DNA from: Styela clava
Lineage: Eukaryota
Direction of reading: 5' to 3'
Length of the DNA stretch: 64,000 nt
Assembly: GCF_964204865.1 (NCBI RefSeq)
Contig: NC_135253.1
Span: 6,324,001-6,388,000 of the forward strand
Below the pieces are notes generated by a model. It was not told the origin of the DNA and did not search any database. It saw nothing but the letters and a program-made list of their open reading frames with translations. This document shows positions 10,578 to 36,586 of this stretch, one piece after another (positions within the stretch are counted from its first letter, which is position 1; each line of letters opens with the position of its first letter). The position numbers and the translations under genes are program-made.

Positions 10578-11397
10578 GAATAGAGTATTAACTTGCACAT
10601 GTGGCTAAGCTCACTGTCAAAACCTAGTCACGTTGCTTTTGTTTTCAGAAATTTTTCTACTGCTTGTAAATATATTCACAATGATTGAATTATGAACAGA
10701 ATCTTCTATAAGCATTTTTACTCATTTATCATGAAAGACGAAAGATCTCTGACGACAATGCATTGACATGTATAAGTGTACATATATATGGCTCATTTTT
10801 CTTAATTGTCATTCTTTTTAATGACATTTGATGGTATTGTTTTCTCTGAAACTATTGGATCAATCGTTTTCAAATTTTTATTATTTGAAGATGGTCTCGT
10901 CTCAAAGTATTCGAGACTCTCATAATAGTTCGTGGTGAGTTAGGGAATTTGTACACATATCTGCCAAACGAACCTGTCAGGCTCTCAAACTCTAAAGCAA
11001 ATCAAAAATTCACATAATATGTGAACCCATTGCATATTTTTATTTTGAAAGCTAAATAATGAATGAGTTTCTCATTGCATGATCCCCTTTATCTCTGATA
11101 AAAATCTGGATACCAAAGAAATAAAAGGGCCTCACTTCATGCATTGCAATATATTCTGGAGTATAAATATAAACCTATAGCCTCTGAATAAATAGATAAA
11201 ATTAATCATAAATAATATGTAATTTTTTTTCTCTCAGATTTCTGTGAAATATTAATTGATCTTCCGTCGTTATTATAGTTTTACTTGGGAATATTTAAAT
11301 CAAGAGTCTATCAATAGTTACATGTAACTAACATCAGGTTCTAGAACTCGATTGACTAATTTCTATGAACTCCTAGAGATAGATGTTTTTATTTTTC

Positions 11398-11879
11398 GCG
11401 GTTGTTTGATGCCAGCTTTGCACTACCCGAATCACCCCACCCGTACCATACCCATGGTATATATTTTCCTGAATCTTTGCGGTTGTTCGACATCAGCTTT
11501 GGATTTTCTGAATCACCCCACCCGTGCCATACCCATGGTATATCTTTTACTGAATCTTTGCGGTTGTTCGACATCAGCTTTGGGCTTTCTGAATCACCCC
11601 AACCGTGCCATACCCATGGTATATCTTTTCCTGAATCTTTGCGGTTGTTCGACATCAGCTTTGGGCTTTCTGAATCACCCCACCCGTGCCATACCCATAG
11701 TATATCTTTTCCTGAATCTTTGCGGTTGTTCGACATCAGCTTTGGGCTTTCTGAATCACCCCACCCGTGCCATACCCATGGTATATCTTTTCCTGAATCT
11801 TTGCGGTTGTTCGACATCAGCTTTGGGCTTTCTGAATCACCCCAACCGTGCCATACCCATGGTATATCTTTTCCTGAAT
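11398..11879. repeat. 81-bp minisatellite, 6 copies
   Basis: GCGGTTG recurs at 11398, 11479, 11560, 11641, 11722 and 11803. Confidence 0.95.
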
Positions 11880-12477
11880 ACAATAAACACGATATATATA
11901 GTAATTTAAACTGTAGCAATGATTAAATTGGATATTCGTTGACTTTATTGTACGATAATAAGGTTTAATACGCGCTTCTTGAGCAGTGGCACTTGAACAT
12001 GTATAGTAAATGGCCGGGAAAACCTAAACAGGTTGTGATGCTCATCATGCCCCGTGGCCAACGCTTTGCGAAATTTTTGTTTGGTGTCTCGGCATTCATT
12101 TTTGTGCCCGTAGACCCAATCTTGATTTTAGCCACAAATCAAGAAGATAGAAATGTCTGCTAGTTTTTTAAATTAGATTAGTTTGATCTATTGTTTTGCT
12201 ATATTGGAAAAGATAAAACAATCAACGTATATACATAGCTGCAATTTTGAGAATTTAGCCACATATACAGACGTCAACTCGAGGCAAAAACGGGGTTGTT
12301 GAATGTCTAATAATCGTGAAATAATGACGACGAGAAACTGTTAGAAAACAATTAAACCGAGGCTGTTTATCAAGTCAGAAATTAAAAGTATGACGTCTGA
12401 AATTTTAAAACAATGTTTCAACGAAGATCGCAAAATTTTAATGATGGGGGTTTTTGTGCACTTGACATTAATATATA

Positions 12478-14127: not shown

Positions 14128-15790
14128 TAAGTTTGGTTGATAGAGTGTGAACAGATTTCCGCTATTTTGTAAATTAAATTCGGTATTAAACAATTCAATT
14201 AAGCATTAACTTATCTGTTCATTTTTATGTTTAAACTTTATGAATGAGATGTGAACTTAGGAATTGTGTACCCAAAATCAACGATAAGTATCAAAAAACA
14301 TTTTGTTTTTATGAAAATAGTACAATGAAAAAACATAATCCAAAGTTTCGAAGTATCAGAATATAAGGATAAGCGGAGTAGAAATAGGAGGGAATAATTT
14401 TTGTATGTATAATTATGTGCATACAGGTCTTTAAAGCTCATATATATATATATTATATGCTGTGGTAGTACATACCTAAGGGATTTTTGCCCAGCATAAT
14501 TCATTCCATTCTTTAATTTCTTTATTAAGCTTTCAAAGATCCAATCGAGGACTACAAACCGGTTAGACGTTATTTCTAACTTTGTCACATAAATGAAAAA
14601 TGTATTTTTGTAGGCGACTTATTGCCATTAATTGTTAAATTATTATTAGTGACTCATTTTTATCTAATATAGACTATTCATTAGAGCAAAAACTGAAATA
14701 ATATTTTACTGTAATGACTGCCGATCAGTTTATTTCATTACCTTACGTCGTTTTTCTGATGATCAGTTTGGACTTGCCATACGGAAATAAAATGAATTTT
14801 ATATTCAATTACCGAAAGAGTATAGGATAGCTAGTCAATCATTTTACAAAAAATGTTACGACTGGTACGTGTATATGTTTATAGATTAAGTCTATGTAAA
14901 ACAAAATTAGTAAGAGCATATGCATTGCGCAGGAGCCTACTGATGAAGCATTTCAATGATTACACTTTTGATATACTGGAAATCAGCTAATACAAAACAT
15001 CGTCACAACTAAAAATATTATAATATATATATATACGACAACATATATATGCCCTTCACATTATTATTCATATACTCTATATATTTTTGTTATTATCTTT
15101 TTTTGTAGCTTTTAAAGGATATGCGATATACCATAAAATGCAGGTAAAACTTATTGAATTATTTGACGAAACATTGAGTATTTAACTCGGGGCAACATAT
15201 TTTGTCGGTGGACCATATAACCAACTTCACAGATCTAGCTGAATTTATTTTTTTCATATATATATATATACACAACAAATTAATAAATTCTCCCAACGGA
15301 TAATTTTATTTATTTAACATCAAGTTTTTGCATATTTTATTAACATCCAATTTGAAGAAAATGTCGTATTGCCTTCTTCTCGTTAAATATATAATATATG
15401 TATATATATCATTGCTTTTATTCAAAGCGTCTCTTGTCTGAAGTGCTGAACGCTGGTAATTGACCGAATTCCGTGGTCTTGATTATTTGCGATTAATTTC
15501 TGCCACAAATACCGTATGCTCCCAGCTTTAGGTGGCCGATTAAACAAGAAATTATGCCTTTGAAAATTGATTGTAAAAGTATAAGTTTATTTTGACTCCG
15601 TGGATGTTTCCCCGACCCTTGACACCAGAGAAAATGTTGGGTCATTTTTGACTCATCGCTGATTTGGTATTGTTGCGGAAATAAACAAGAAAATCGGTGA
15701 GCGAGGAAAACCAAAGTGACTATTGAGGAAAACATCCATACATAGAATAAAATACTATAGGTTTAACATGGTAGCGGGTGGAGGGCTCTA

Positions 15791-16654
15791 GTGTTAAAGA
15801 ATTTTACAATGTGCATGTACATAATTAGTGTCTTGGATTGTTATAAAGCTAGAGAATGTGATTATAATGAGCATTACAATCATATTTGTATATCCTTTGT
15901 TGAATACAATATTGGACAACAACTTAGTACATTTTGGGGGATTAGAACTAAAAATACATGTTTACATAGATTTTGTCCTCAAAGTGAGTATAGATTAATA
16001 TTAGAATTTTTAAGAAAACATAACATAAGTAGTACAGATAAAAAAGAAGGTATGCATAAAACTATTTATAAAAAAATTGTTATTTCTATGACTGGGGATA
16101 GATTAATTTTTCTACGCAATTGTAATTTAAATATTGCATGTGAGAATGTTCATAATAATATTCTGGCAAACTATATGAAAACCTTTAATTCCAAGTTAAT
16201 GTGGGATATTTTACCAGTAAAAACAAAACCTGGAATAAGAAATATAGCAGGAAATGATATGTGTGTGTTATGTGGAAAAGAACCAGAATTTGTTAGCCAT
16301 CTATTTATGAGTTGTGAATATTTTGATTATGTTTCTGATTTTATGGAAAATACTGTTAGGAAATTAAATAATGCCAGACTTTTGAAAAATTATGAATCTT
16401 GTGTTTTATTGGATTTAAGCTATTTGTTACATTCCAACATTACAAGACGAGATTTAGATATCATTGTTTATTTAATTTCAATCACTAAAATATGGATACA
16501 AAGAAATTCTGTTATATTTGGAGGTAGTCCCCCTAATCAGCACCTAGTTATCAAACAAATAAAAACTGCAATCACTTACAGACTCAACATTGAAAAAAAT
16601 AGAAAATCACCAAATTTTGTCAGAGAATTTGAAATACTAAGGAATTGTATTTGA
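15791..16654 (+). mobile_element. 5'-truncated non-LTR retrotransposon ORF2 C-terminus (L1/Tx1-like zf-RVT region)
   Basis: WDILPVK...CVLCGKEPEFVSHLFMSC zinc knuckle followed by IWIQRNSVIF, typical of L1/Tx1 ORF2 ends; no RT core present. Confidence 0.8.
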
Positions 16655-17373: not shown

Positions 17374-17870
17374 AACAAGTTATGCCTACTTATGCATTAC
17401 AGGCTTGCCATACTGCAGTAGGCTAACTGTAAACACGTTTTGGTTTGAATTACCACAGCTTTTTACAATTTGTATGTATTTTCTGGGTCGATCTCAAATA
17501 GCACCAAGTTATAGTAAGATACAGAAATATAAGAATGGCTTGTATGATTTCATAGTGCAGTAGTGTCTGAGTGTGGTGAACAGGTTATACTGTTATAGAA
17601 GTTTTCTATTTTGTTAGCATGTTTACCTTGTATTGGAGTGTCCCACAATAACCTATTGGTATTAGTGATAATTCAGAAGAAAGTTGCACTGAATAGCGCT
17701 AACTATAAGTTATTTACCGCTAAAGTTATGCATTAAATTGCCTTATAGTTAATATGGACGTAGCTTTCTAAACCTTGTACTTGTATAGTTGTATACTCAC
17801 CCATTTCTGCTTTTGTATTCTCAAAGGTTCTAGTCATTATATGCATATGAAATAGATTATTAGAGCAAAC

Positions 17871-20800
17871 ATGACGGAGACGATTAAAAACAAACTGGAA
17901 TTTCCTCACTATTTTGTCAGAATTCAAGCTATTGAACAATTGCAGACATCTGCAAGACATAAACTCAAAACTGGACAAAAACTGATTTCAGAATTGGATA
18001 TTCTATGGCAAAAGTCCTGTGAATCGAATGATTCCAATACAGCATGTGCATGTGCAAATGCGATTGTGACTCTGGCCAGAGAAGGATTGTTGGATGGAAA
18101 TAAAGTGGTTTCAACAGCAGTGAATTTTTCCTCTCACGCTCCTTGTATTAGTTGGCTGCTTCACATCATTGGTCAATTACTCAAGTTAGATGTTTTGAAA
18201 CAAGTTCAGTCTTGCAATGATGCTGTTTTATATCGCTGTCCATATAATTTTAGATCTCCACCCCATCCATTTATATCCATTCTTTCAAGCAGTCCGAATG
18301 CATGGCATTTAGTGGTCTTGCAAATTGAAAACATATTACAAATTGACATTGATAATTCTGATACAAATCTACTAAATGGAATGTTTGCAATATTAAAACC
18401 AATTATTTTGTACATTCTATTAAACCCATCAACTGCAAATGAAGTGGATTTATGCAGATTTAGACTGTTGACCTGTTTATTTGAAATCATCATGAATGAG
18501 GACAAAAGGGATCAGAAATTAGAATTCAAGAAAACTATATTTCACGTTCTGGAATATCATGACCCAACAACTAATACACTTACATTTTATGAAAAAGCTG
18601 CAGAACTGAATGAAAAAAATCTGATGCTTCTTTTGAAGATATTACATTTCTGTATCACCACATCAGATGCTTGTAATAAATTAATAGCTATGAGAATGCT
18701 GAGAAGAATGACAAAAGATTGTCACTTTAGTACTGTGGACTTTGAGCTGATATTGGTTGCTATTGCACGATTCTTAAAAACCCAGCCTGTCATAGTTTTA
18801 TTTGATGTTCTGTGTTGGATACAATCATTCGTGGAATTAATTGAAGATGTTTCCAGCATGATAGTAGACATGCTAAGACTCACATTGTTGCAGTTGCAGC
18901 TTTTGTGTAGCATGAATGTGATAGAACCAAAAACGAAGAATCTTCTTCTCAAGGTATTCACAAGCTTGGAGGAGAAACAATCCAATGTAGCAAATAAAGC
19001 ATTCAAATCTTCTTTAAGTGAATATTGTATTTTGGATAACTATGGAAATGAAGTATTGTCATTTGCAATTACACTTGAGAGAATTTCTTCAGATCCTCTA
19101 CTTTGGCTAAACTCAATTGAAAATTTACTCGCAAACAATTCCGTTGATAAAAGTGATATTTCAAACATTACTCATTTGTTATTAACCTTGCTGCTGAATA
19201 CAGCAAAATTGGATATTGGAGATGAGTATGTGTCAAATGTTTTCAGCCACACTTTAAACTGTCTGATGAAACTAGCCGATGCAAACCCTCAATGTTCATT
19301 TTCAATTTTGCCAGTTTACATATATTTAATCAAGCGTTCTGATATGATGATTGTCCACAGGGTTTTCTATGCACTACCTAGTTTGGCAAACCATCCTTAT
19401 TGTGTGTCACCCATTTTAAATATTTTAAAATCAATGTCATCTAGTCCATCTCTAAAACCATTGGCACTAAGGCTTTTGATTAATGTTTGGAAGAATCAGG
19501 ATCGTTGTTATCCACACATACAAACAATGATATCTGGTGATGTGAACAGCATTTGGAAGAAAGATGATAATTATGATTTGCATTTAGTGAAAGGTCTTGC
19601 CATTTGTACAATATGTAAAGACCGACCTCATCAATATGGAAGTGATATGCTGAAGATAATAAATCGTTTAATTATGACACCTGGTCAAGGTAAATGCCAT
19701 ATTGGAATGGTTTCACTTGCATTAGAAGCTCTTTACTTTTTATGTGAAAGCAAAGTCTTGAATTTAAAAACAATGTGGGATGAGGTCGGGCCTCATTTAC
19801 AAAAACAGACTGAAGCACTCATATGTGCAGGTGTTTTGAAACTTTTATCACTCGTTCCAAGCTTCATGACGGATTCTCAAGAGTATGAAACTTTCCTTGG
19901 AATTACTTTACCATGGGTTTGGAATAAACTTAACAGTACAGATGATATCTCAATTGTTGATGCAGCCTTGCAAAGTTTGTCTCACTTTGATTATTTGAAT
20001 TTTAAAGTTAAGCATTTCCCGTCATCTCTTAGGCCACAAAAAAGTGACGAAATTTCAGAGGAAGAATATCTGGAAAAGCCGGTTCCTGGTTCATGTTTTG
20101 GAAAACTTTTACTTACAGTCAACAGTAAAAACTTTGAATCATTTGAAAAATTATCTTCATCAATTCTAAAACAAGAACTGAGAAGTCTTCCGAGGGACAT
20201 ACATCACAGAGCAATGAAATCGCAGTTACAGGCATCACAACCCAAGCCATTGAAAGCTATTCCTGAGTTTATTGTGAATTTCTATGAGCGAAATAAACAA
20301 CCAGCAATGAAGGCAAGTTTAGCTTCTAGTTTGCTTTTATGTTACTCTACTTCACCAGAATTAGATAGCTCTGGTAATCCACTTCCAAAATCATTGGTCT
20401 CACAAGGAAGAAAAGTGATTGACATACTGAAAGCATTACTGAAAGAAGTGTTTATTGAGCCAAATAACTGGCAAAGTTTGTTATGGTGTGCACATGGTTG
20501 GAAGGTTTTTATGAAGAGATGTGTAAATATTGTGATAGTTGGCAGGCTTGCTGAGCTTAATATGCAAAAATTAAGAGATGATGGTGATTCCACTGAGGCG
20601 CAGGAGGAATTGGAACAAAAGATAAACACTGTTAATTTATGGTGCAGAGATAAAATTATGAATGTTTTGAAGGCTGCTTCTAAAGGAAACCCCAGCTCTC
20701 AGGGAAATGCTGTATTTGCATTAGCAGCTCTAATTATTGCAACAAACACCGGTGAGAATGATATGAATGAAGAGAATACTGCCGAGGCAAAAATTGACAC

Positions 20801-23234
20801 AGAATTCCTTAAAATGTCACATTGGACAACAATGGCCATTGATACATTAATGAGCATAGCAAATCCGGAACATATTCCAAGTGGAAGAATTATGTCTTGG
20901 TGTCAATATAGAGCTGTATCATCCACTGGTAAGCTTAGCACAACTCAATTAGGTAAAATATGTGCTATTCATGCCCTGCCATTCATCACATTGGTTACAA
21001 TGCAAAAACACAGTGGAAAAGTTCTTGAAATGCTTGCATTCTTGAGAAAGAACGATTTATCAGAAGAAGGCATAACTTTTCACAGCTTTCTTGCCTTGGG
21101 CCACATTCTGAGCGTTATCTATCATGAAAACCTGAATGATCAATTCACAAATGACGGTGTGTTACTTATCCAAAAGTGTTTAGAAATGCTTTATGAAAAT
21201 TTGAACAATATCCTGAAAGAAAATGATAAACAGCTACAGGATAATCTTGGATGCCTGCTTGGTTTTGGGTTAGCTTTTTCATCTAAACTCCAAAGCTCTG
21301 ATCCATCATTCAATGTCGCTGGTAAAGAAGTCATTTTCAAATTGAAAGAAAGTCTAAAAAATGAAGATCATTCACCTGAATGTGCACAAACACTGGCAAC
21401 TATTTTGACATGGACTCACCTCTCTGCATTTTCCAATGGTATATTTGCAAATGATGAAGTAAACAGTTTGGTGGATATTCTTCACACTGTTGTAGATGAA
21501 AATCCATCTAAATCTGGTCTTAGTGAATCACTAGGAACTTTGTGCAATGGAATTTTTCTTTTTGGTGAGGGTTCAATTAGTGAAACAATGAATTCACTTT
21601 TCAGCAAATGGTATGCAAATTTAAGTAAGGGTCAAATACCAACTCGGGAAAAGCTTGCATCTATTACTGGTATAAGTGCCTTGGTCGGGGCAAACTCCAC
21701 TCTATCCCCTGTTGCTGTGGATCCCTCCATGTTGGGATCCAGTCAGTACTTGTCTAAACTATCTGGTGTTGTGAAATCACTGCGTCTATTAGCAAGGAAT
21801 TCTGATGATCCGGGAGTTCCTACTAAAGCTACCATACTTTTGGGCCACTTATATATGTCACTAGAAAGCAACAGCAGCACTATTGGTTCCATTTTGCCAC
21901 CATCCTATGAATACTTACCACATACCAGCATTTTGAAATGTTTATACAATCTTTGTATAGAAGCAATAAAACCAGATAATGTGATGAAAGGTGATATACT
22001 CGATGTAATCATGAGAGTTATATCTCAAAATTCGTGGGATTTTAAGCTTCCTCCAGTGAATTGGACTTCGGTGCTTTCTCCTTTGCTTCTAGGTAGTTAC
22101 AGCGAAACAACAATAAACTCTGTTATATCAATCCTACTTTCACAGTGCAATCATTCATCAGCATGCTCTTCTCTTTTATCGATATGGATTTCTATGAAAA
22201 AATTTGAATCTATTCCTTCCTCTGCTCAAGTAATGATCTATCAAAATCTGGATAAAGTAATAAGATGTCAGGAAGATTTAAAAATAGCCGACTTTCTTGA
22301 GTTAATAGCAACTCGATGTATTGATATGCCTTGGAACTCCGACCAATTTCAAGTAATGCGTGTGGCCATCATAGATGGTTTAACTAAATCATTGAGACAA
22401 TCTAGTGCTTTGGCTTCTGGTATCAATGATATGTTGTATAACACGATTGAAGGATTGTTTATGAATTTACCTTTTATGTGTGACAATAAAAGACATATAG
22501 ACGTTTTACGAAAGTTGTCTGAATGCATAGAATGCCTGCCTGATGCCAATGCGTTGCTTTCAAATTACGAAGTTGAAAATGCTCTTTCCAGCAATCTTCT
22601 AAAGTGCTTATTTATCAGGTGTTGCTGTACACTTACTGGTACACATCCACTGAACATGTGTAATAATACAATTCTCAAGTGTGGCAAAGATGAAAGTATT
22701 CGTAATGAGTCTTTGTGGATCATTGGTCAATGTTTATGTGGTATTGGAAGAAAAGAACAAGTGCATAGCCAGATTGAATGGCTACAAGAACTGATGGGTG
22801 AGATTAAGAAAATAGTCGAATCTTCAGAGAAACTCGATCATGGGCTGTTAGATTATTGTATTAATATATTATCTATGGCAGTTGCTTTTTGGTCAACTGC
22901 TGGGAGTTCTTTGCCCATTATGGGACACTACAAGAATAGTTCCATGATTTTGAAAGTTCAGTCTACATGTCTAAATGACTGCAAACATATGTTTCCGCTC
23001 TCCCTATCAATGTTATACAAGTCCGAGAAATGGGAAAATTTAATAAAGCATATGACTGATTGGTTGATAATGATGTTGCAGAAGGTAAATGTCATTGGTT
23101 CAATGCAAAGTTGGGAACAACCATTTAGAGGTGCTCTGTATGCAGCTGTTAATACAAAAGGATACCAATTACCCTCCGTTTGGTGCAAAGTAGTAACTGC
23201 AATTGTCAAGCCGATGCTTAGACAAGATAATTGA
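17871..23234 (+). CDS. FOCAD: Focadhesin (FOCAD/KIAA1797; RST1-like), single-exon 1787-aa ARM-type protein
   Basis: Uninterrupted 5364-nt ORF; blocks PHPFISIL, YALPSLANHPYCV...LRLLINVWKNQDRCYPH, ICKDRPHQYGSDML, KGNPSSQGNAVFALAAL, LPPVNW; length matches the family. Confidence 0.9.
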   Translation: MTETIKNKLEFPHYFVRIQAIEQLQTSARHKLKTGQKLISELDILWQKSCESNDSNTACACANAIVTLAREGLLDGNKVVSTAVNFSSHAPCISWLLHIIGQLLKLDVLKQVQSCNDAVLYRCPYNFRSPPHPFISILSSSPNAWHLVVLQIENILQIDIDNSDTNLLNGMFAILKPIILYILLNPSTANEVDLCRFRLLTCLFEIIMNEDKRDQKLEFKKTIFHVLEYHDPTTNTLTFYEKAAELNEKNLMLLLKILHFCITTSDACNKLIAMRMLRRMTKDCHFSTVDFELILVAIARFLKTQPVIVLFDVLCWIQSFVELIEDVSSMIVDMLRLTLLQLQLLCSMNVIEPKTKNLLLKVFTSLEEKQSNVANKAFKSSLSEYCILDNYGNEVLSFAITLERISSDPLLWLNSIENLLANNSVDKSDISNITHLLLTLLLNTAKLDIGDEYVSNVFSHTLNCLMKLADANPQCSFSILPVYIYLIKRSDMMIVHRVFYALPSLANHPYCVSPILNILKSMSSSPSLKPLALRLLINVWKNQDRCYPHIQTMISGDVNSIWKKDDNYDLHLVKGLAICTICKDRPHQYGSDMLKIINRLIMTPGQGKCHIGMVSLALEALYFLCESKVLNLKTMWDEVGPHLQKQTEALICAGVLKLLSLVPSFMTDSQEYETFLGITLPWVWNKLNSTDDISIVDAALQSLSHFDYLNFKVKHFPSSLRPQKSDEISEEEYLEKPVPGSCFGKLLLTVNSKNFESFEKLSSSILKQELRSLPRDIHHRAMKSQLQASQPKPLKAIPEFIVNFYERNKQPAMKASLASSLLLCYSTSPELDSSGNPLPKSLVSQGRKVIDILKALLKEVFIEPNNWQSLLWCAHGWKVFMKRCVNIVIVGRLAELNMQKLRDDGDSTEAQEELEQKINTVNLWCRDKIMNVLKAASKGNPSSQGNAVFALAALIIATNTGENDMNEENTAEAKIDTEFLKMSHWTTMAIDTLMSIANPEHIPSGRIMSWCQYRAVSSTGKLSTTQLGKICAIHALPFITLVTMQKHSGKVLEMLAFLRKNDLSEEGITFHSFLALGHILSVIYHENLNDQFTNDGVLLIQKCLEMLYENLNNILKENDKQLQDNLGCLLGFGLAFSSKLQSSDPSFNVAGKEVIFKLKESLKNEDHSPECAQTLATILTWTHLSAFSNGIFANDEVNSLVDILHTVVDENPSKSGLSESLGTLCNGIFLFGEGSISETMNSLFSKWYANLSKGQIPTREKLASITGISALVGANSTLSPVAVDPSMLGSSQYLSKLSGVVKSLRLLARNSDDPGVPTKATILLGHLYMSLESNSSTIGSILPPSYEYLPHTSILKCLYNLCIEAIKPDNVMKGDILDVIMRVISQNSWDFKLPPVNWTSVLSPLLLGSYSETTINSVISILLSQCNHSSACSSLLSIWISMKKFESIPSSAQVMIYQNLDKVIRCQEDLKIADFLELIATRCIDMPWNSDQFQVMRVAIIDGLTKSLRQSSALASGINDMLYNTIEGLFMNLPFMCDNKRHIDVLRKLSECIECLPDANALLSNYEVENALSSNLLKCLFIRCCCTLTGTHPLNMCNNTILKCGKDESIRNESLWIIGQCLCGIGRKEQVHSQIEWLQELMGEIKKIVESSEKLDHGLLDYCINILSMAVAFWSTAGSSLPIMGHYKNSSMILKVQSTCLNDCKHMFPLSLSMLYKSEKWENLIKHMTDWLIMMLQKVNVIGSMQSWEQPFRGALYAAVNTKGYQLPSVWCKVVTAIVKPMLRQDN

Positions 23235-29295: not shown

Positions 29296-29921
29296 TATGC
29301 TTATTTGCTGTTGAACCGCGTAGCTGAAATTGGAGATGTTTCTGATATAATCCACCCCGAAAACAAAAAAACCAGAAATCGTTGAATGAAATAGATGTTT
29401 ATCAGGGATACAAGAATTTAAGAATTGATGCACGACATTTCGCTGAATTGATACCTAGCGGTTATGAAAAAGTGATATCGCATCAAGTTATTTGTACATA
29501 ACCTCAAGGTATCAATTCACCGAAATGTCAGGAGTTTTATTTTCATAAAGAGAGAAAGTAAGAAGAAAATAAAAATAGAAAGATACGATACAAGTCGAAA
29601 CTCTTTTGTTTCGCAGCTAACTATCAGCTTATATTTTCGCAATATATATAGTTTCGACACTTGTGGCTTTAGTCGTCTGTGAATAAGTAGTTTCGGTAAA
29701 AACGAAGATTAACAATTTTTGCTTTTCATTTGTTGCTTCTGAAACTGAATGAGTTGAACTAAAATAGATCAACAAATTATAATATTCAACATTTACTTAC
29801 AAAATGTTGAACGAATTATGCCTAACTCGAATGCGATCTTCTTCGAAACCGCTTTTGAGCAATGTGTCACGCGCACTAAGCGTAAACATGAAACGTCGAC
29901 CATTACATCATCGCCTCTTCT

Positions 29922-30021
29922 GGGGAATTCTTCCATAAACGCCCCTTGTTGTAATTTCGAGTGAGAAACCCCCTTTTCTACAATATAAAAACCTCGATCG
30001 ACTTCTCGCAAAATTTCAGTT
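29922..30021 (+). promoter_or_regulatory. Putative TNFR core promoter: two kappaB-like sites, TATA box, Inr
   Basis: GGGGAATTCT 29922-29931; GAGAAACCCC 29963-29972; TATAAAA 29984-29990; TCAGTT 30016-30021; followed by ATG|GTGAGT at 30044. Confidence 0.5.
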
Positions 30022-30043
30022 CTACACAGTCACACAGTATAAA

Positions 30044-33000
30044 ATGGTGAGTACTGTACTTTAAAAAATTAAATATTTATGATTTTGATATTGTCTCACC
30101 ACTATCTTAGGCTAGGTTAGTTTATGGTAGGTTACGTTATTGCTGCATCCTCATCAATATTAAAAGGAAAAAAGTGGGGCAATATTAAAATCTGAAATAT
30201 TCTAACTAACCTACGATAGACGACACAATCAGAAAATAAGATATAAAAGTGGTGATGCAATAACAGTGCGAGACCGCACTTTTATATTTTTTTAGTTTAA
30301 ATGCCAACTCGCAATATGATCAGATATATTGAACTAATAGCTACAGGAAAGATATATTTCAGTAGGGACAAGTTTAATACCACTGGTGGTTCTGTAGTCT
30401 ATCTTACCGCCCTGACTTGTAAGAAATTTTGCGAGTCAAATGAGGTCTATTTTGTTATAACGATTAGAATATATTAGTAAATCTCGTTCTCAAAATTTTA
30501 AGAAATGCCTGTAACCGCTATAGAAATCGGGTAGAAATGAAAAAAAAAAAATTATATCGAATTACATCCCAAATGCGACATGTTTAAAAGGTGTATATAT
30601 TCGCATGGCATTTTTTTCCCGGACGAGAATATCCGAGGTAGATTGAGAATTAGTGAAAATGAGTTATTTATGTTTTTCTTATTGAAATCTATATCCCGCT
30701 TCTTGTTTTTGGCTTTGGCAATAATAGAATCTAATATCTATCTATATTCTATGATGACGATATTTTAATAGTAGGATTACCAAAAACGCAAAAGGCTTTT
30801 TAGATGACAATAGTATTTTTATTTCACTGAAATCAACAGCCTGCATACAGCAGATCCATTCAGAATCAAAACTAAGTTAGACTATGCCATTCTCAGGTTA
30901 GGAACTGTAAACTTAACGCTTATCAAATTCATGCAGTTCATGTAGTAAACAGGTGAAACTATACTTCGGCGACATAAAATTACTGGTAAAAATAAATTTG
31001 ACGTTTGATGGGAAACACCGATATATTTTGTGTGTTGAATGTATTAAGTAAATATTAATACGTATTTGCGCAACTAGGCTACTCTTGCGCAAGTAAACGT
31101 CACAGAACAAGCGAAAGTGTTTCGTCTGTTTCTGTCTCTGACGAAATATCATACCGAGGTATTTCTTACACTCGACGTAACGCTAGACTAAACTATTATT
31201 AATAAAAACTGTGGTGTCTGTTTTACACGGACGGAAAAGGCTTTATTGCGACCTCAACCTACGCGTGTGGTCGCATCAAAGATACCTGTTGTTGGCGACA
31301 TATTATAAGGTGCCAATCACTTTACTTCAGTATGTATCAGGGTGCTTCAATACGATAATCCTATTGTCTATATGTAAGGTGATAGGTAAAATAAACACCA
31401 GTGATATTTTTGTACCGTCTGGAAACTTACGAAAAATTTCTAGGTGTTATCTTTCTCGGCGGGCTTCGCATGACCGCGTGCTGTATCAATTGGGTACACT
31501 CAGCAATTTTGAAGGACAAATTATGGAAAGGGATTGTCGATCAATACACTGAAATTAGGCCTCTTATGTAAACGTAACAAGTTGTAATATCGCTAATTTA
31601 TTCATAAAATGAAACTACAAAAACAAAATTCAATTTTTACACAAAATATTAAAAAAGTTACATTTCATAAATATTGGATTTTATAAATAAAGATACTGAC
31701 GTAATAGTTTAACTATAGAAATAGGGTGATGCATTGCACCATCCTTTTTCAACGTCACAATTCAAATATTTGATAAACTGCACAAGTTTGAAAAGCACCT
31801 CGTGTAAATTCCTTATATTACAAACAATTGTGCTATGAATAAATATGTTATGTAATGTGCTATAAAATAGCAGTTGGACCCTAATATGTCATCCTGGTTT
31901 CAAACCTCAATAACATATCTTGTACCAACACGAAGGGTCGTCATAAATTTCGTACCGTAAGGTTTTTTTGCCTAGTTGTAGTCGCTATTCTAGATAATGA
32001 GTGTGTGTGCGGCAAGTCAATGCCCATGAAAAAGTAAACGGACCTCCTGAAGTATGCGCTCAAGATGGCGCACAATCTGAACTCAGGTTGTGTACCAGGT
32101 TGGGGTTCAGGTTGTGCGACATCTTGGTGCGCATACTTCAAGAGTACCGAGTAAATTCCCATTATAGGTGAATTTACACATGTATACAATTTGGTACGAG
32201 CGAGAAAACGAGCACCAAACAAACCATGGATTTTTGATTTTTAGTCAACGAATATTCATTTTGTGTATTTCAATACTTCAAAATGTATGCTGAATCGAAA
32301 TATTTTCATTTTTAGATAACCAAGATATGTGCCGCATTGTTGCTGTTATTCACTGTTGCAACACTTGTAGTCGGATATAGAAATGAAAATAACAAACGCG
32401 TAAAATGTGGTGAAAGCTCATTCTTCAACGCCACAAGACAAGCTTGTCAAGCCTGTGGTATATGTGAACCAGGTATATGCTAATTTTTGTTTGTAACTTG
32501 TACAAGCCTAGCGTCATATGACTCTACGTATTAGAGCCACGGAATGCTGAGACTTTATTTGATTCAGGTGAACCATGGTGTTTATACTAAGACAAAATAA
32601 ATGTCACGCGCTGAGAAATGACTTTGCAGTTTTTCTCGGTAGTCTTGTGATTCACAGATTGACGTCATTTGCAACTGATCTCCCCACAAATTCTCCCCAA
32701 ACTTATGAGCCATGAAAATGCAACAAAATTTCGATATCAATTATAATATGATATGACGAATACGACAAAAAATATTTTATTTTGACAAACTCAACAGGCT
32801 TTATTACGATGAAATGTGTGTGTATTATTGTTGTCTGATCTCGTTATCTGGTATTCATCAAAGGTACATACATCAAAAGAACCTGTAGCGGAACTCGAGA
32901 TTATCACTGCAAAAAATGTGAACCTGGACATTTTTCAACCAGATATACAAGATTGCCTGGGAAATGTCGAATGTGTAGTCGATGTGGGGATAGACCTGTT

Positions 33001-33992
33001 ATAAAACGATGTACAAAAACATCAGATACTGTATGTGGTGATTGTCCTTTAGGTAAGAATACTCGTTAATGCGAAAATCAATGTGACGTACAAACTTTCC
33101 ACACCAAAATCACATTATGACTTGTGTTCAGGCACTTTCATGTCGTTTGGACGATGCATTTCTTGTGGATATTGCTTTCCAGACTTTGGTATCGATATAC
33201 CAAGGGAGCCAGCTTGTGAAAAGCCTCAGATACCAGCTTCACACCGATGTACCGTGCTCATAGTAGATCCATATGATCCACCTTATTTAGTGTCGAGGGC
33301 AGATGATGATGGAAATCAATATTTTGTATCATGTGAGTATTTGAAAATAAGTGTTTGTTCAAAAATTCTTTTCTCTCTTTTATGCCCAAAGTTATTAATA
33401 TTCCATTAAAAGTTTTAAATGTTTTTTTTAAGGTTTATTCCGGCTTAAAGTGCTTTTAGTTGACGTGGAATTTTTTATGTAAAAACTGCTTCGTTTCTCT
33501 ATTTAAAAATATTATAGATTACATCTATTCCGGATTTGTAATTTTACAAGTATTTTCCTAACAGCTTACACTCTTTTGCCAAAAAAATCTGACACACCTC
33601 ATGACAACGCACGATTGTTGATCGACGATAAACAAACAAGTCAAGGAGAAAGCCACACGACAACGATACCAACAACAACAAAACGTGTAAACATGGTTAC
33701 GAGCGTATTGGCGAACATACCTCGGCACACCGCAAGAGAAATATCCAGTAGACTTGTAAAATATGGAGAAACTTCTTATGAATATTGGTTGGCTGGTGCC
33801 GGAATCATAATCAGTCTATGCATTGCTTTAACTCTTGGGTGTATCAGTGTAATCTACCGTCGCAGATTATCACAAACTGTGACTCAAAAACCTTATCGCC
33901 CGATTGTGAAAAATCGACAACAATACTACGCTCATTTTGTGGATGAACATACAAAACATAGTTTGAAGTCAGCTCTTTTAGACAATGCCTAA
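30044..33992 (+). CDS. TNF receptor superfamily member, type I membrane protein without death domain, ~325 aa
   Basis: Exons 30044-30046 (ATG only, GTGAGT donor; least certain), 32316-32472, 32864-33052, 33132-33332, 33565-33992; in phase (978 nt). Signal peptide ICAALLLLFTVATLVVG; TNFR cysteine-rich repeats (CQACGICEPG...CSGTRDYHCKKCEPG...CRMCSRC...CTKTSDTVCGDC); Thr-rich stalk; TM WLAGAGIIISLCIALTLGCISVIY; 44-aa tail. Confidence 0.88.
32040..32148. mobile_element. Short palindromic MITE (same family as 12478-12575) in TNFR intron 1
   Basis: GGACCTCCTGAAGTATGCGC...GCGCATACTTCAAGAGTACC; flanks AAGTAAAC/GAGTAAAT. Confidence 0.7.
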
Positions 33993-34768
33993 TATCAAGC
34001 CTCAATAGAGTTTTTCGTTAATACTTTCTTGGGAGAAATTTACTAACAAAGTGACCATCAATGATGGAACCAAATGGAATGAAATTATTTCAAATGAGTT
34101 CAATATATTTCTGTTCGAATTGTGCAAAACCTTTTTTTATATTTGGGAAGAATATATTTTAAAACGCCTGCTTTCATAAAGCACGTCTTCGAAACAGAGA
34201 ACTACGGTAGTTATTTAGTGACCAGGGTTCATTCAGCCATTCAGCTCAAAATTAGAAAATAGGCTAGTTGAGTACTGATGCCATTTGTAGGTGTATGCCA
34301 GTAGCCATTGAGAAAGCAGTAAGAGTAACCCTAGTTCATCATCAGTTGTTCCGTATACGTGTACGCTTAATCTACCAACAAAAAGTTTATTTTGGTACCT
34401 TATATTTATTCTAAATCACAAGCAAGAAATAAGTACAAAATATATACAAAGGCGAATGTTGTGCTCACGCAATTATTTTTAACAAAAAACAAAACAAGCT
34501 GAAATATAAAAAAAAAACGGTTTCTATACTAAGAATTATAAATCACAAGGGTATTTTTTAAGATCTCTGTTAAGTTATAGCGATTTCGACTTGGTTGAAA
34601 TATTTCAGGAAGTAACGCAGGCAGATGATTTAATAGCTTTCATGTGTATTGTAATAACGACCCCATAAGATGAGTAAGCTTTATAATATTTAGCAACTAT
34701 GTTGTTAGTGACAAAGTGTCCTGTTAATTTTTTTTGTCTTGACAACCGACCAAAACAGCATAACAGTT

Positions 34769-36586
34769 CTACTGTCTGAATTGTCCCAGATAAAAAACTC
34801 CAAAAAACGATTTGTCGTCGTTCATGTCGATTACAATTCCACCCCTCGTTGGATGGACAGACAAAAGATCATCTGGTCTGAGATAGAAAACACCTGCCGT
34901 ATAACTCGATTCTTCAGATAGCACTGGTCTGCCAGGACGTAATCTGTCAGAATGAATGAAATCTAATAAAAAATACGGTTCACTTACACAATTTGCAAAA
35001 AATATCTCCCGAACTAAACATAAAGTCATACAGGCTTCTTACATTTTCCAAGAATTCGAGCTGGTAAGTAAAGTTTTTCTCGTATCTACGCCATTAACTG
35101 TTGTTGTTACATCTACAGTGTGTCCAGCCGGAAATACGCCGTGTGTATGATATGTTACCTGTTAATTCAACGTGAAAATAATACAGGATTACAAAAATAT
35201 TACTGGTCTTTACTATATAATGTTTACATTGAACAGAGATAAAATCAACGGTTATTCGAAATTGTACCGTACTTGACTATACACATGATATAATCCTTCA
35301 GTTGCTATTCGTATGTACTGAATTCCATTGTTTCCGCTGTCATATCTAGTTTCCATATAACATATACTGTGTGGTTCCAAGTCTGGCTCCTTCCAAAGCA
35401 TGCAATCATTTTCTTAATAAACAGTTTATTGTTAATACTTCATATATTGATGGTACAAATACACAACGCTATTTAACATAATAGTTAAATACGAATCAAA
35501 TTTACCAGATTATTTTAAATAGTACACAAAATATATTTTTGATTTCTACTTGATCTAGGTCTTTGCCTGGGGCCATCTTCACTGAAGATTTCTGGTCCTT
35601 GTTTTCCTTCTAAGTGACACGGTCCCACAGTCAACTTTTTGTTACCTATCATAAAACATAATTTTAATTAAGTGATGTAATTATTATTATTACATGATTA
35701 TTTTACAAGTAATTTATTCTCATATTTTATATATAGTTTTTACATTTTTTGTCTCTTTTGCATCTGTTTATTCCTCGTTTTACCCTCTTTATTTCAACTG
35801 AATTTTCTTTTTCTTCAATTACATCGTCATATGAGATGTCGTCAATCGATGATTTTTCATTCTGTAATGTAATCGATTCGTGACCGTTGAAATTGCGTGA
35901 TATTCTAATGTTTATATTGGAATATAAAGCAATGAATAGTATTTTCAACAATTTACTTATCTATTTTTTTAACTGAATAAAAATAACAATTGAACTTTTA
36001 AAAAGAAAAGGACATGGATGCCTACTGTTCAATGTAATTGTTACCTTTCTTGGCTGATATTATTTGCTTTTGCTGGATGGATGGAATTCGGACGCCCACA
36101 CGGAGACAACCGCATATCACAATAAAACGTGAATAGGCCACACATGATGCACCAAACCTATATTTCCTATTTATTTTCTACCTCGTTTATGGCATCATCA
36201 TTTAAGTCTGCTTGGTGGTCATACATTTTTTCCGGGGAGTTTCCATATTTGGTATTTACTTCAAGCAGATTTTGTACAAGTTCCGTATTTATTTTCAAAA
36301 GCCTTCTTTGTTCTTGAAGCTAAAAATATCAAAAAAGGAAGTTTTAATAGAAGAATTTTTTAGCTCTTCCTCTTTTCTCCAAACGCCCACTCACCTCACA
36401 CGAAAGCTCTATAACTTTGTATGCCACACCTGAAATAAGTAAGAACAAAGAACACCACAATATGATGATGAATATACGTGGGCGAGCGGTACTTTTCCGT
36501 CCACACAAAATTACATCCTTGCGTGCTTTGACCAGCTGCTCTCCTTTCTCAGAAATGTTCAACGGGGTATTTCCTTGGGGGCTCAT
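34769..36586 (-). CDS. TNF ligand superfamily member (type II membrane protein; EDA/BAFF/Eiger-like TNF homology domain)
   Basis: Exons 36586-36395, 36319-36182 (or 36260), possibly 36157-36045, 35904 (or 35862)-35744, 35645-35550, 35412-35273, 35158-35043, 34943-34769. N-terminal TM IFIIILWCSLFLLISGVAY; furin site RVKR; TNF-domain motifs CHLEG, MLW, EGLYHVYSQVTY, SSYTAGVFYLRPDDLLSV, DKSFFGVFYL. Confidence 0.88.

What the first reader, a model, noticed from the sequence alone, without database searches (positions are those of the whole stretch)
30044..36586. Tail-to-tail TNF receptor and TNF ligand genes: candidate linked ligand-receptor module
Seen: a complete TNFR-superfamily gene (+, stop at 33992) and a complete TNF-superfamily ligand gene (-, stop at 34769) converge, with only 776 bp between their stop codons. 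Known: the two families are structurally unrelated, so this is not a tandem duplication. In vertebrates cognate pairs are generally not adjacent (EDA and EDA2R share the X chromosome but are not neighbours). The ligand's furin site and SxYTAGVF/FFG pattern resemble EDA/BAFF/APRIL/Eiger, and the receptor is a death-domain-less type. Inference: a co-inherited, possibly co-regulated cognate pair. It could be a relic of ancestral ligand-receptor linkage, or a lineage-specific immune or developmental cassette (ligand plus decoy is also possible).
Basis: partly seen in the sequence, partly recalled or inferred. Interest (0 to 1): 0.8.

Follow-up and report, generated by a model that had tools for sequence, protein, structure and literature searches.

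The report
Sea-squirt TNF ligand beside TNF receptor
In a sea squirt, a TNF-family signal gene and a TNF-receptor-family gene sit end to end and both are real spliced genes, but nothing found here shows that they bind each other or stay together in other species, so the pairing is most likely an accident of a compact, fast-shuffling genome.

Summary
In Styela clava a 325-aa TNFR-family gene (+) and a 324-aa TNF-family gene (-) converge with 776 bp between stops. All ten introns appear in sequencing-run contigs; RefSeq has both.

The 'EDA-like cognate module' reading is weaker. The ligand lacks the E-F disulfide of EDA/BAFF/APRIL and is listed with tunicate TNFSF-T1b, on the TNF/FasL/TRAIL side (PMC12843592). 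The receptor belongs to a death-domain-less three-CRD invertebrate class whose short tails are enriched for YxxΦ sorting motifs (12 of 29 against 5.3 expected, post hoc), suggesting trafficking or scavenging.

No other TNF region (0 of 6) has a receptor beside it. A second tunicate's receptor orthologue has no ligand exon in 3.5 kb downstream. Unrelated FOCAD/HUS1 converge at 809 bp in this window.

Against chance: random adjacency is only about 0.4-2% likely per genome, and Ciona could not be tested. Binding is untested.

The parts
29698..30046 (+). Receptor exon 1: 5' UTR plus the ATG (30044-30046) as its only coding part
   Evidence: One contig of run X1 covers 29698-30045 and joins to 32315 across a GT..AG intron (1 of 4 runs); RefSeq protein P0001 has the same N-terminus
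32316..32472 (+). Receptor exon 2: signal peptide and first half of CRD1
   Evidence: Splice model; hydrophobic N-terminus; joint 32470-32862 in 4 of 4 runs
32864..33052 (+). Receptor exon 3: end of CRD1 and CRD2
   Evidence: PF00020 E 1.3e-8 on this exon alone; joints in 4 of 4 runs
33132..33332 (+). Receptor exon 4: CRD3 with the class-typical CxxCxxC...C...C module and a following beta-hairpin (about aa 169-183)
   Evidence: 17 cysteines invariant in a 37-sequence alignment; AlphaFold2 block means of pLDDT 88-98 over aa 31-180, strands 169-173 and 179-183
33565..33992 (+). Receptor exon 5: Ser/Thr-rich stalk, transmembrane helix (about aa 256-281), 44-aa tail with two YxxΦ motifs, no death domain, no TRAF-type motif by regex; stop at 33990-33992
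33993..34768 (.). 776-bp stretch between the stops; holds both 3' UTRs, which appear to meet or overlap near 34130-34170
   Evidence: Receptor-side contigs end at 34023-34168, ligand-side contigs begin at 34133-34255 in two runs (34567 in a third), and one 2,982-nt contig of run X2 runs through both spliced genes. Contigs are unstranded, so overlap is inferred
34769..34943 (-). Ligand exon 7: end of the TNF homology domain (F-H strands); stop at 34769-34771
   Evidence: PF00229 E 6.5e-4 on this exon alone; joint 34943-35043 in 3 of 4 runs
35043..35158 (-). Ligand exon 6: TNF domain D-E strands, no cysteine
35273..35412 (-). Ligand exon 5: TNF domain with Cys185, Cys199 and the GxYxVYSQ motif
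35550..35645 (-). Ligand exon 4: start of the TNF domain with Cys159
   Evidence: the published domain starts here
35744..35861 (-). Ligand exon 3: stalk with two furin-type sites (RVKR136, RCKR143), both kept in the unnamed orthologue P0003
36182..36319 (-). Ligand exon 2: helical stalk, no collagen repeat
36395..36586 (-). Ligand exon 1 (coding part): short cytoplasmic N-terminus and type II transmembrane helix (about aa 38-58)

Best explanation
Two ordinary, separately promoted, single-copy genes that happen to be neighbours in Styela clava. SHOWN: the ligand is a type II membrane protein with a C-terminal TNF domain and two furin-type sites; the receptor is a type I membrane protein with three complete cysteine-rich domains, a stalk and a 44-aa tail without a death domain; both are spliced as modelled. 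INFERRED from the families: the ligand (tunicate TNFSF-T1b) trimerises and is shed by furin as a soluble cytokine of about 180 aa. The receptor works less as a TRAF or death-domain signalling receptor than as a recycling binder: its tail carries YxxΦ sorting motifs, so it most likely cycles through endosomes and captures, clears or presents a TNF-type ligand or another partner, much as Drosophila Wengen does. INFERRED about the linkage: it arose by intrachromosomal rearrangement in the Styela lineage or its close relatives and needs no functional cause; the neighbour may or may not be among the receptor's ligands (my estimate about one in three).
For: Gene models and splicing. Single copy of each: only the window's exons match P0002 and, apart from one weak E 0.09 match, P0001. 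Not a genome-wide pattern: 0 of 6 other TNF regions have a CRD match at E<1 in 230 kb scanned, and 0 of 5 other receptor loci have a TNF last-exon match (best E 0.98) in 150 kb. Second tunicate (L081-L084, four near-identical contigs, so one species): receptor orthologue with the same three intron positions, grouped with the window's receptor at 92/89 support, and no TNF exon in 3.5 kb downstream or 8.8 kb upstream; an HMM without any T1 member still finds the window's own last exon at E 4e-4. [quoted passage not shown] The gap size is matched by an unrelated pair (809 bp). Tail: YxxΦ in 12 of 29 class members against 5.3 in shuffled tails (P about 0.0015), TRAF-type motifs 7 against 4.8; in 3 of 4 tunicate orthologue proteins tested plus the L082 model. 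Wengen binds Eiger weakly, sits in vesicles and can act without it (abstracts of PMC8024323 and PMC10514202).
Against: Random adjacency is unlikely at face value (0.4-2% per genome). The cross-species negative rests on one species, whose contigs end 3.5 kb after the stop, whose introns are 2-20 times longer and which may have lost T1b (present in 10 of 24 species in the published alignment). Divergent ligands can be missed: leave-one-out E-values were 0.04 and 0.79 for two other paralogues. Ciona, which has both genes, could not be tested; an unlabelled gene (KY21.Chr14.676) does sit next to one of its NGFR-like genes. About 70 kb inside the C2 ligand cluster and four weak receptor-like matches were not examined. 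The YxxΦ test was chosen after seeing the tails and ignores relatedness; P0004 lacks the motif. Wengen is an analogy, not a tested orthologue.
Confidence: 0.6

Rival explanations
1. Cognate cassette kept by selection in ascidians or stolidobranchs: T1b is the receptor's own ligand, and tight linkage keeps a shed cytokine and its scavenger or decoy (or co-adapted alleles of both) together.
For: Low nominal chance of adjacency. Both genes have orthologues across the two main tunicate branches (ligand; receptor). Spliced forms of both occur in the same four runs. Both are single-copy.
Against: No ligand exon beside the orthologue in L081-L084. T1b is listed for only 10 of 24 species. No other ligand-receptor neighbours in this genome. 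Convergent genes share no promoter (inference).
Confidence: 0.2
2. Relic of an ancestral chordate ligand-receptor linkage, specifically an EDA-type ligand with an EDAR/EDA2R-type receptor.
For: Best solved-structure sequence match of the ligand is APRIL (E 9e-4 for single-domain entries) and the best Atlas structure match is a TNFSF13 cluster (TM 0.69). Ligand and receptor genes share chromosomes elsewhere in this genome (C4, C18), though 3-10 Mb apart.
Against: No E-F disulfide; no collagen stalk; Atlas feature search gives FasL/TL1A-named clusters first (0.90, 0.89); the published tree puts T1 with V11/V12, not with EDA. The receptor's closest relatives are invertebrate death-domain-less proteins, and EDAR is 19th among solved structures. 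A separate locus (G000:C18:6.78 Mb) looks more EDAR/EDA2R/TROY-like by its shorter last module (the diagnostic pattern is recalled), and Ciona has a separate EDA2R/TNFRSF19 orthologue.
Confidence: 0.07
3. The linkage matters at the RNA level only: the two 3' ends overlap, so the transcripts interfere or pair and tune each other, whatever the proteins bind.
For: Contigs from the two sides meet or overlap near 34130-34170 and merge in one run; no AATAAA on the + strand in the gap.
Against: The inferred overlap is tens of bases, pieced from different runs, on unstranded contigs; close convergent ends are ordinary in this window.
Confidence: 0.1

Closest known systems
Tunicate TNFSF-T1b (Marin 2026, PMC12843592; Ciona XM_004226590.4; this gene is XM_039393452.1)
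   Same: The window's ligand is itself in that paper's S1 alignment, in the block with Ciona T1b; all 12 entries of the block share two cysteines matching Cys159 and Cys199, which the T1a block lacks.
   Different: The text I read does not mention a neighbouring receptor; the synteny figure (Fig. 3) could not be seen and may show it. The T1b label is inferred from list order and shared cysteines, not from the tree figure.
EF-disulfide TNF ligands (EDA, BAFF, APRIL)
   Same: Type II topology, furin-type cleavage, similar F- and H-strand motifs; APRIL is the top pairwise match.
   Different: No E-F cysteines, no collagen stalk; other Styela paralogues do carry the E-F pair.
Invertebrate death-domain-less three-CRD TNFRs (automatically labelled 'TNFRSF16/NGFR-like'; e.g. 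Ciona savignyi H2YU73, Ciona intestinalis XP_002126343, Ptychodera XP_070552609)
   Same: Same cysteine frame including the membrane-proximal module, stalk, single TM and short tail; tunicate members form one clade with the window's receptor.
   Different: The tunicate clade adds a conserved hairpin after CRD3. I found no study of this class's ligands.
Drosophila Wengen and Grindelwald with Eiger
   Same: Death-domain-less TNFRs; Wengen lives in vesicles, binds Eiger weakly and can act without it (abstracts), which is how this receptor most likely works.
   Different: Orthology was not tested; the fly genes are unlinked (recalled); the fly has one ligand, Styela clava 13 listed sequences.
Vertebrate decoy and non-signalling TNFRs (DcR1, DcR2, DcR3, OPG) and p75NTR/DR6
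   Same: CRD1-2 superpose best on p75NTR and DR6 (Z 11.1, rmsd 1.7-2.1, about 80 residues); DR6, DcR3 and OPG are the top sequence matches.
   Different: A shared CRD fold does not assign a subfamily; p75NTR and DR6 have death domains and DcR3 and OPG are secreted (established knowledge).

Membership tests
TNF superfamily ligand | C-terminal TNF homology domain | tested here: met
   PF00229 42.8 bits against cut-off 23; Atlas model aligns to a TNF cluster at TM 0.69
TNF superfamily ligand | Type II transmembrane anchor with cleavable stalk | tested here: met
   Hydrophobic helix near aa 38-58; two R-x-K-R sites kept in P0003; cleavage itself not shown
TNF superfamily ligand | Forms a homotrimer | not testable with these tools
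   Own AlphaFold2 model of the ligand failed (pLDDT 38, two-sequence alignment)
EF-disulfide group (EDA/BAFF/APRIL) | Disulfide between strands E and F (PMC6224509) | tested here: not met
   Ser261 and Ser280 align to APRIL's cysteines; no Cys after 199 in P0002 or after 198 in P0003
EDA proper | Collagen Gly-X-Y stalk (recalled) | tested here: not met
   No run of four or more Gly-X-Y triplets
Tunicate TNFSF-T1b | Membership of the T1 branch with Ciona XM_004226590.4 | tested here: inconclusive
   Read from the paper's S1 order and shared cysteines; I could not rebuild the tree and did not see Fig. 1
TNF receptor superfamily | Cysteine-rich domains with the six-cysteine pattern, type I topology | tested here: met
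   PF00020 48.4 bits against 29.4; 18 ectodomain cysteines; model matches TNFR structures at Z 8-11
Death receptors | Cytoplasmic death domain | tested here: not met
   44-aa tail; no Pfam match other than PF00020
TRAF-binding TNFRs | Canonical TRAF-binding motif in the tail (motif patterns recalled) | tested here: inconclusive
   None in P0001, P0004, P0012, P0031 and no enrichment in the class (7 against 4.8); non-canonical sites cannot be excluded
EDAR/EDA2R/TROY receptors | Orthology to the vertebrate EDAR group | tested here: inconclusive
   EDAR ranks low (E 0.0015; Z 6.9); a separate Styela locus and a separate Ciona gene fit better; no named vertebrate sequences were available for a tree
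Linked cognate ligand-receptor module | Adjacency conserved across species | tested here: inconclusive
   Absent in the 3.5 kb downstream and 8.8 kb upstream held for one other tunicate; Ciona and other stolidobranchs not testable
Linked cognate ligand-receptor module | Selective binding of this ligand to this receptor | not testable with these tools
   Needs a binding assay or a panel of complex predictions against paralogues
Linked cognate ligand-receptor module | Correlated expression | not testable with these tools
   Only flat contig depths were available, which cannot rank genes

The most novel reading that the evidence does not exclude
TNFSF-T1b and this vesicle-cycling, death-domain-less receptor are a true ligand and scavenger pair kept tail to tail, with touching 3' ends, across ascidians that retain T1b. 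Gene adjacency would then de-orphan a widespread invertebrate TNFR class with no known ligand and give the first assigned TNF ligand-receptor pair that I could find for tunicates, the sister group of vertebrates.
Probability: 0.15. Interest if true: 0.65.

Novelty: new member of a known kind. Interest (0 to 1): 0.3.

Why it matters
Tunicates have up to 14 TNF ligands (PMC12843592), and none of the papers I saw assigns one to a receptor. If this adjacency proved conserved, it would hand over a concrete pair to test and a ligand for a receptor class found in molluscs, echinoderms, hemichordates, amphioxus and tunicates. As the evidence stands it is a correct, apparently unremarked, single-genome adjacency of two known gene types. 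Its lasting value is smaller: a corrected class for the ligand (not EDA-type) and a testable trafficking role for the receptor.

Tried and rejected
Complex prediction (ligand domain x3 plus receptor ectodomain): no verdict, scores 0.00 and 0.01, alignments not used, controls not run; counted neither for nor against binding. AlphaFold2 of the ligand failed (pLDDT 38), so no fold search was run on it. Fold searches of the receptor model confirm the CRD fold only and barely test residues 113-250. The run search listed no holder on record as RNA; contig depths were not used as expression evidence. Word-index protein searches returned only the Styela proteins and one unnamed orthologue. L085 is an unrelated cysteine-repeat protein on a contig of another kind and was dropped (1 of 5 loci). 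Most of the 24 PF00020 matches in the genome (C2:16.9 Mb, C4:20.4-20.5 Mb) are partial repeat matches that I did not count as receptors; C1:3.74 Mb, C5:15.5 Mb, C14 and C17 were not examined closely. Ciona adjacency: the KY21 table labels receptors but names no T1 ligand; another paper's supplement had nothing usable and a third could not be read. S. plicata has no entry in the T1b block, but I do not count this as a loss because P0003 (61% identical, unnamed) could come from it. First gene models with wrong boundaries were discarded. Repeats in the gap are short and unremarkable. Earlier scan notes: nothing relevant. In the YxxΦ count, 8 of 37 aligned proteins without a detected TM were set aside. 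Not in print as far as searched; subscription papers, figures and bioRxiv supplements were out of reach.


Full report
VERDICT. The two genes are real and lie as described. The ligand is not of the EDA type, the receptor looks like a trafficking or decoy-type protein, and I found no evidence that the pair is cognate or conserved. Conservation could be tested in only one other species and only in part, so it is not excluded.

THE OBSERVATION. The window is G000:C4:6324001-6388000 of a 377-Mb genome; protein matches name it Styela clava. Splicing by coordinates gives a 325-aa receptor on + (five exons, the first coding only the ATG) and a 324-aa ligand on - (seven exons), all introns GT-AG, with 776 bp between stops. 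Contigs from four public runs skip these introns: receptor intron 1 in 1 of 4 runs, introns 2-4 in 4 of 4, and all six ligand introns in 3 of 4. RefSeq holds the same models as consecutive loci LOC120327064 and LOC120327065. Pfam gives PF00020 and PF00229 above cut-off and nothing else. Each gene is single-copy in the genome searches, which score only the best candidates. Contigs from the two sides meet near 34130-34170 and merge in one run, so the 3' ends probably touch or overlap slightly; contigs are unstranded.

THE LIGAND. It has a type II helix, a stalk without collagen and two furin-type sites that the unnamed orthologue P0003 keeps. Its best pairwise match is APRIL and the Atlas structure search also gives a TNFSF13 cluster first, while the Atlas feature search gives FasL- and TL1A-named clusters. 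The hallmark of the EDA/BAFF/APRIL group is a disulfide between strands E and F (PMC6224509, one passage). Here those positions are Ser261 and Ser280 and no cysteine follows residue 199; two paralogues elsewhere in the genome do carry the pair. Marin 2026 (PMC12843592; I read the abstract, sections 4 and 12-16, part 1 of 2 of the Discussion, part 1 of 5 of S1 plus searches of S1; no figures) lists this gene as XM_039393452.1 in the block with Ciona XM_004226590.4, which the text names TNFSF-T1b. All 12 entries of that block, from 10 of 24 species, share two cysteines matching Cys159 and Cys199. The paper groups T1 with vertebrate V11/V12 genes (96% bootstrap), not with EDA (V11 is the TNF and FasL clusters per passages of PMC11762692).

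THE RECEPTOR. Signal peptide, three six-cysteine domains, a Ser/Thr-rich stalk, one TM helix and a 44-aa tail. The AlphaFold2 model is confident over residues 31-190 and adds a hairpin after CRD3; CRD1-2 superpose on p75NTR, DR6, OPG and RANK, which assigns the fold but no subfamily. A full search found 221 relatives at E<=0.001. Of the 20 looked up, 17 carry names, all from tunicates, amphioxus, hemichordates, echinoderms and molluscs, and 3 are unnamed. In a 24-row ectodomain tree the window's protein groups with P0004, two Ciona proteins and the L082 gene model at 92/89 support, below the tool's starred level and with long branches. No TRAF-type motif is found in four tunicate tails. YxxΦ occurs in the first 30 tail residues of 12 of 29 class members with a TM against 5.3 in shuffled tails (P about 0.0015), whereas TRAF-type motifs are not enriched (7 against 4.8). 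I chose this test after seeing the tails, relatedness is not corrected, and P0004 lacks the motif. That YxxΦ directs endocytosis and sorting is established knowledge.

IS THE LINKAGE SPECIAL? Within the genome, PF00229 matches fall in seven regions. None of the six others has a CRD match at E<1 in 230 kb scanned, and none of five other receptor loci has a TNF last-exon match in 150 kb; about 70 kb inside the C2 cluster was not fetched. A metagenome scan gave four near-identical contigs (L081-L084) with a tunicate-type orthologue of the receptor and the same three intron positions. They hold 3.5 kb after its stop and 8.8 kb before its start, with no TNF exon by tblastn, HMM (best E 13) or motif scan. 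The HMM finds the window's own last exon at E 4e-4 without any T1 member but misses or barely finds two other paralogues (E 0.04, 0.79), the introns there are 2-20 times longer, and the species may lack T1b, so this is a partial negative. As a baseline, FOCAD and HUS1 converge at 809 bp in this window, and neither FOCAD/HUS1 nor YEATS4/GEMIN6 is adjacent in Ciona (rows of supplementary file 4 of PMC12258801). Against chance stands the arithmetic: 0.4-2% per genome under assumed gene numbers. That is low for one family pair but not for a scan over many families and genomes. In Ciona the same table names no T1 ligand, and an unlabelled gene lies beside one NGFR-like gene, so the decisive comparison stays open.

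HOW IT MOST LIKELY WORKS. The ligand is shed by furin as a soluble trimer (inferred from the family). The receptor binds through its CRDs and cycles through endosomes by its tail tyrosine motif, clearing, buffering or presenting a partner and not signalling directly (inferred). Drosophila Wengen gives the precedent: weak Eiger binding, vesicular location, ligand-independent action (abstracts of PMC8024323 and PMC10514202); orthology was not tested. The two genes are transcribed from opposite ends of the locus, and their closeness most likely reflects rearrangement in a compact genome (0.6). Rivals: a cognate cassette kept by selection (0.2), regulation through overlapping 3' ends (0.1), a relic of ancestral EDA-type linkage (0.07). 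Apart from linkage, I put the chance that this ligand binds this receptor at about one in three.

NOVELTY. The ligand is catalogued and both genes are annotated as uncharacterised. Eight literature searches found no statement of the adjacency; Fig. 3 of PMC12843592 lists flanking genes and may show it. Also seen: passages of PMC7674686, PMC13367198, PMC10923776 (supplement unreadable), PMC12816324, abstract and passages of bioRxiv 10.1101/2024.07.27.603686 (supplements closed), and a supplement search of PMC8462739. None reports linked TNF ligand-receptor genes in the passages seen. Earlier scan notes held nothing relevant. Score: new member of known kinds, interest 0.3; 0.65 if the cassette proves conserved and cognate (probability 0.15).

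Noticed in passing
L067:4522-8183 + (G000:C16:11.021-11.025 Mb): Exons with TNFR_c6, EGF_CA and TNFR_c6 matches are followed by exons with TNF-like strand motifs but no Pfam, PDB or hhalign support. The Atlas structure search of the ligand hit a 908-aa chordate 'TNFR-Cys' cluster at TM 0.70. Possibly one protein carrying receptor-type CRDs and TNF-fold domains; unverified.
   Followed up: partly
L073:2618-4163 - (G000:C18:6.78 Mb): A separate TNFR gene with a shortened last cysteine module; a better candidate for the EDAR/EDA2R/TROY-type receptor (pattern recalled). It shares contig C18 with the T1a-like ligand, 10 Mb away.
   Followed up: partly
window 17856-23234 +: Focadhesin (FOCAD) is one uninterrupted 1,792-aa reading frame, tail to tail with HUS1 at 809 bp. 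YEATS4 (477-1160) and GEMIN6 (1426-1935) also read as single open frames.
   Followed up: no
window 32026-32162: A short repeat with 34-nt inverted arms in receptor intron 1, very abundant in the run contigs. In 3 of 4 runs the receptor contig starts in or just after it and runs unspliced into exon 2, where no in-frame ATG precedes the signal peptide: a retained intron or an alternative start.
   Followed up: partly
window 33257-33332 + (receptor aa about 157-184): A confidently modelled beta-hairpin after CRD3, conserved in the tunicate orthologues and not covered by the fold matches.
   Followed up: partly
window 34126: A>G in contigs of 3 of 3 runs that cover the site, next to the inferred 3' overlap. 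Most likely a common allele; editing cannot be told without matched DNA.
   Followed up: no
G000:C2:19.63-19.77 Mb (L053-L055, L061-L065): Tandem cluster of TNF ligand genes with a near-identical block repeated about 15 kb apart.
   Followed up: no
window 11328-11926 and 15767-16654: A tandem repeat array of about 72-bp period (judged from the repeating translations) and a zf-RVT retroelement fragment.
   Followed up: no
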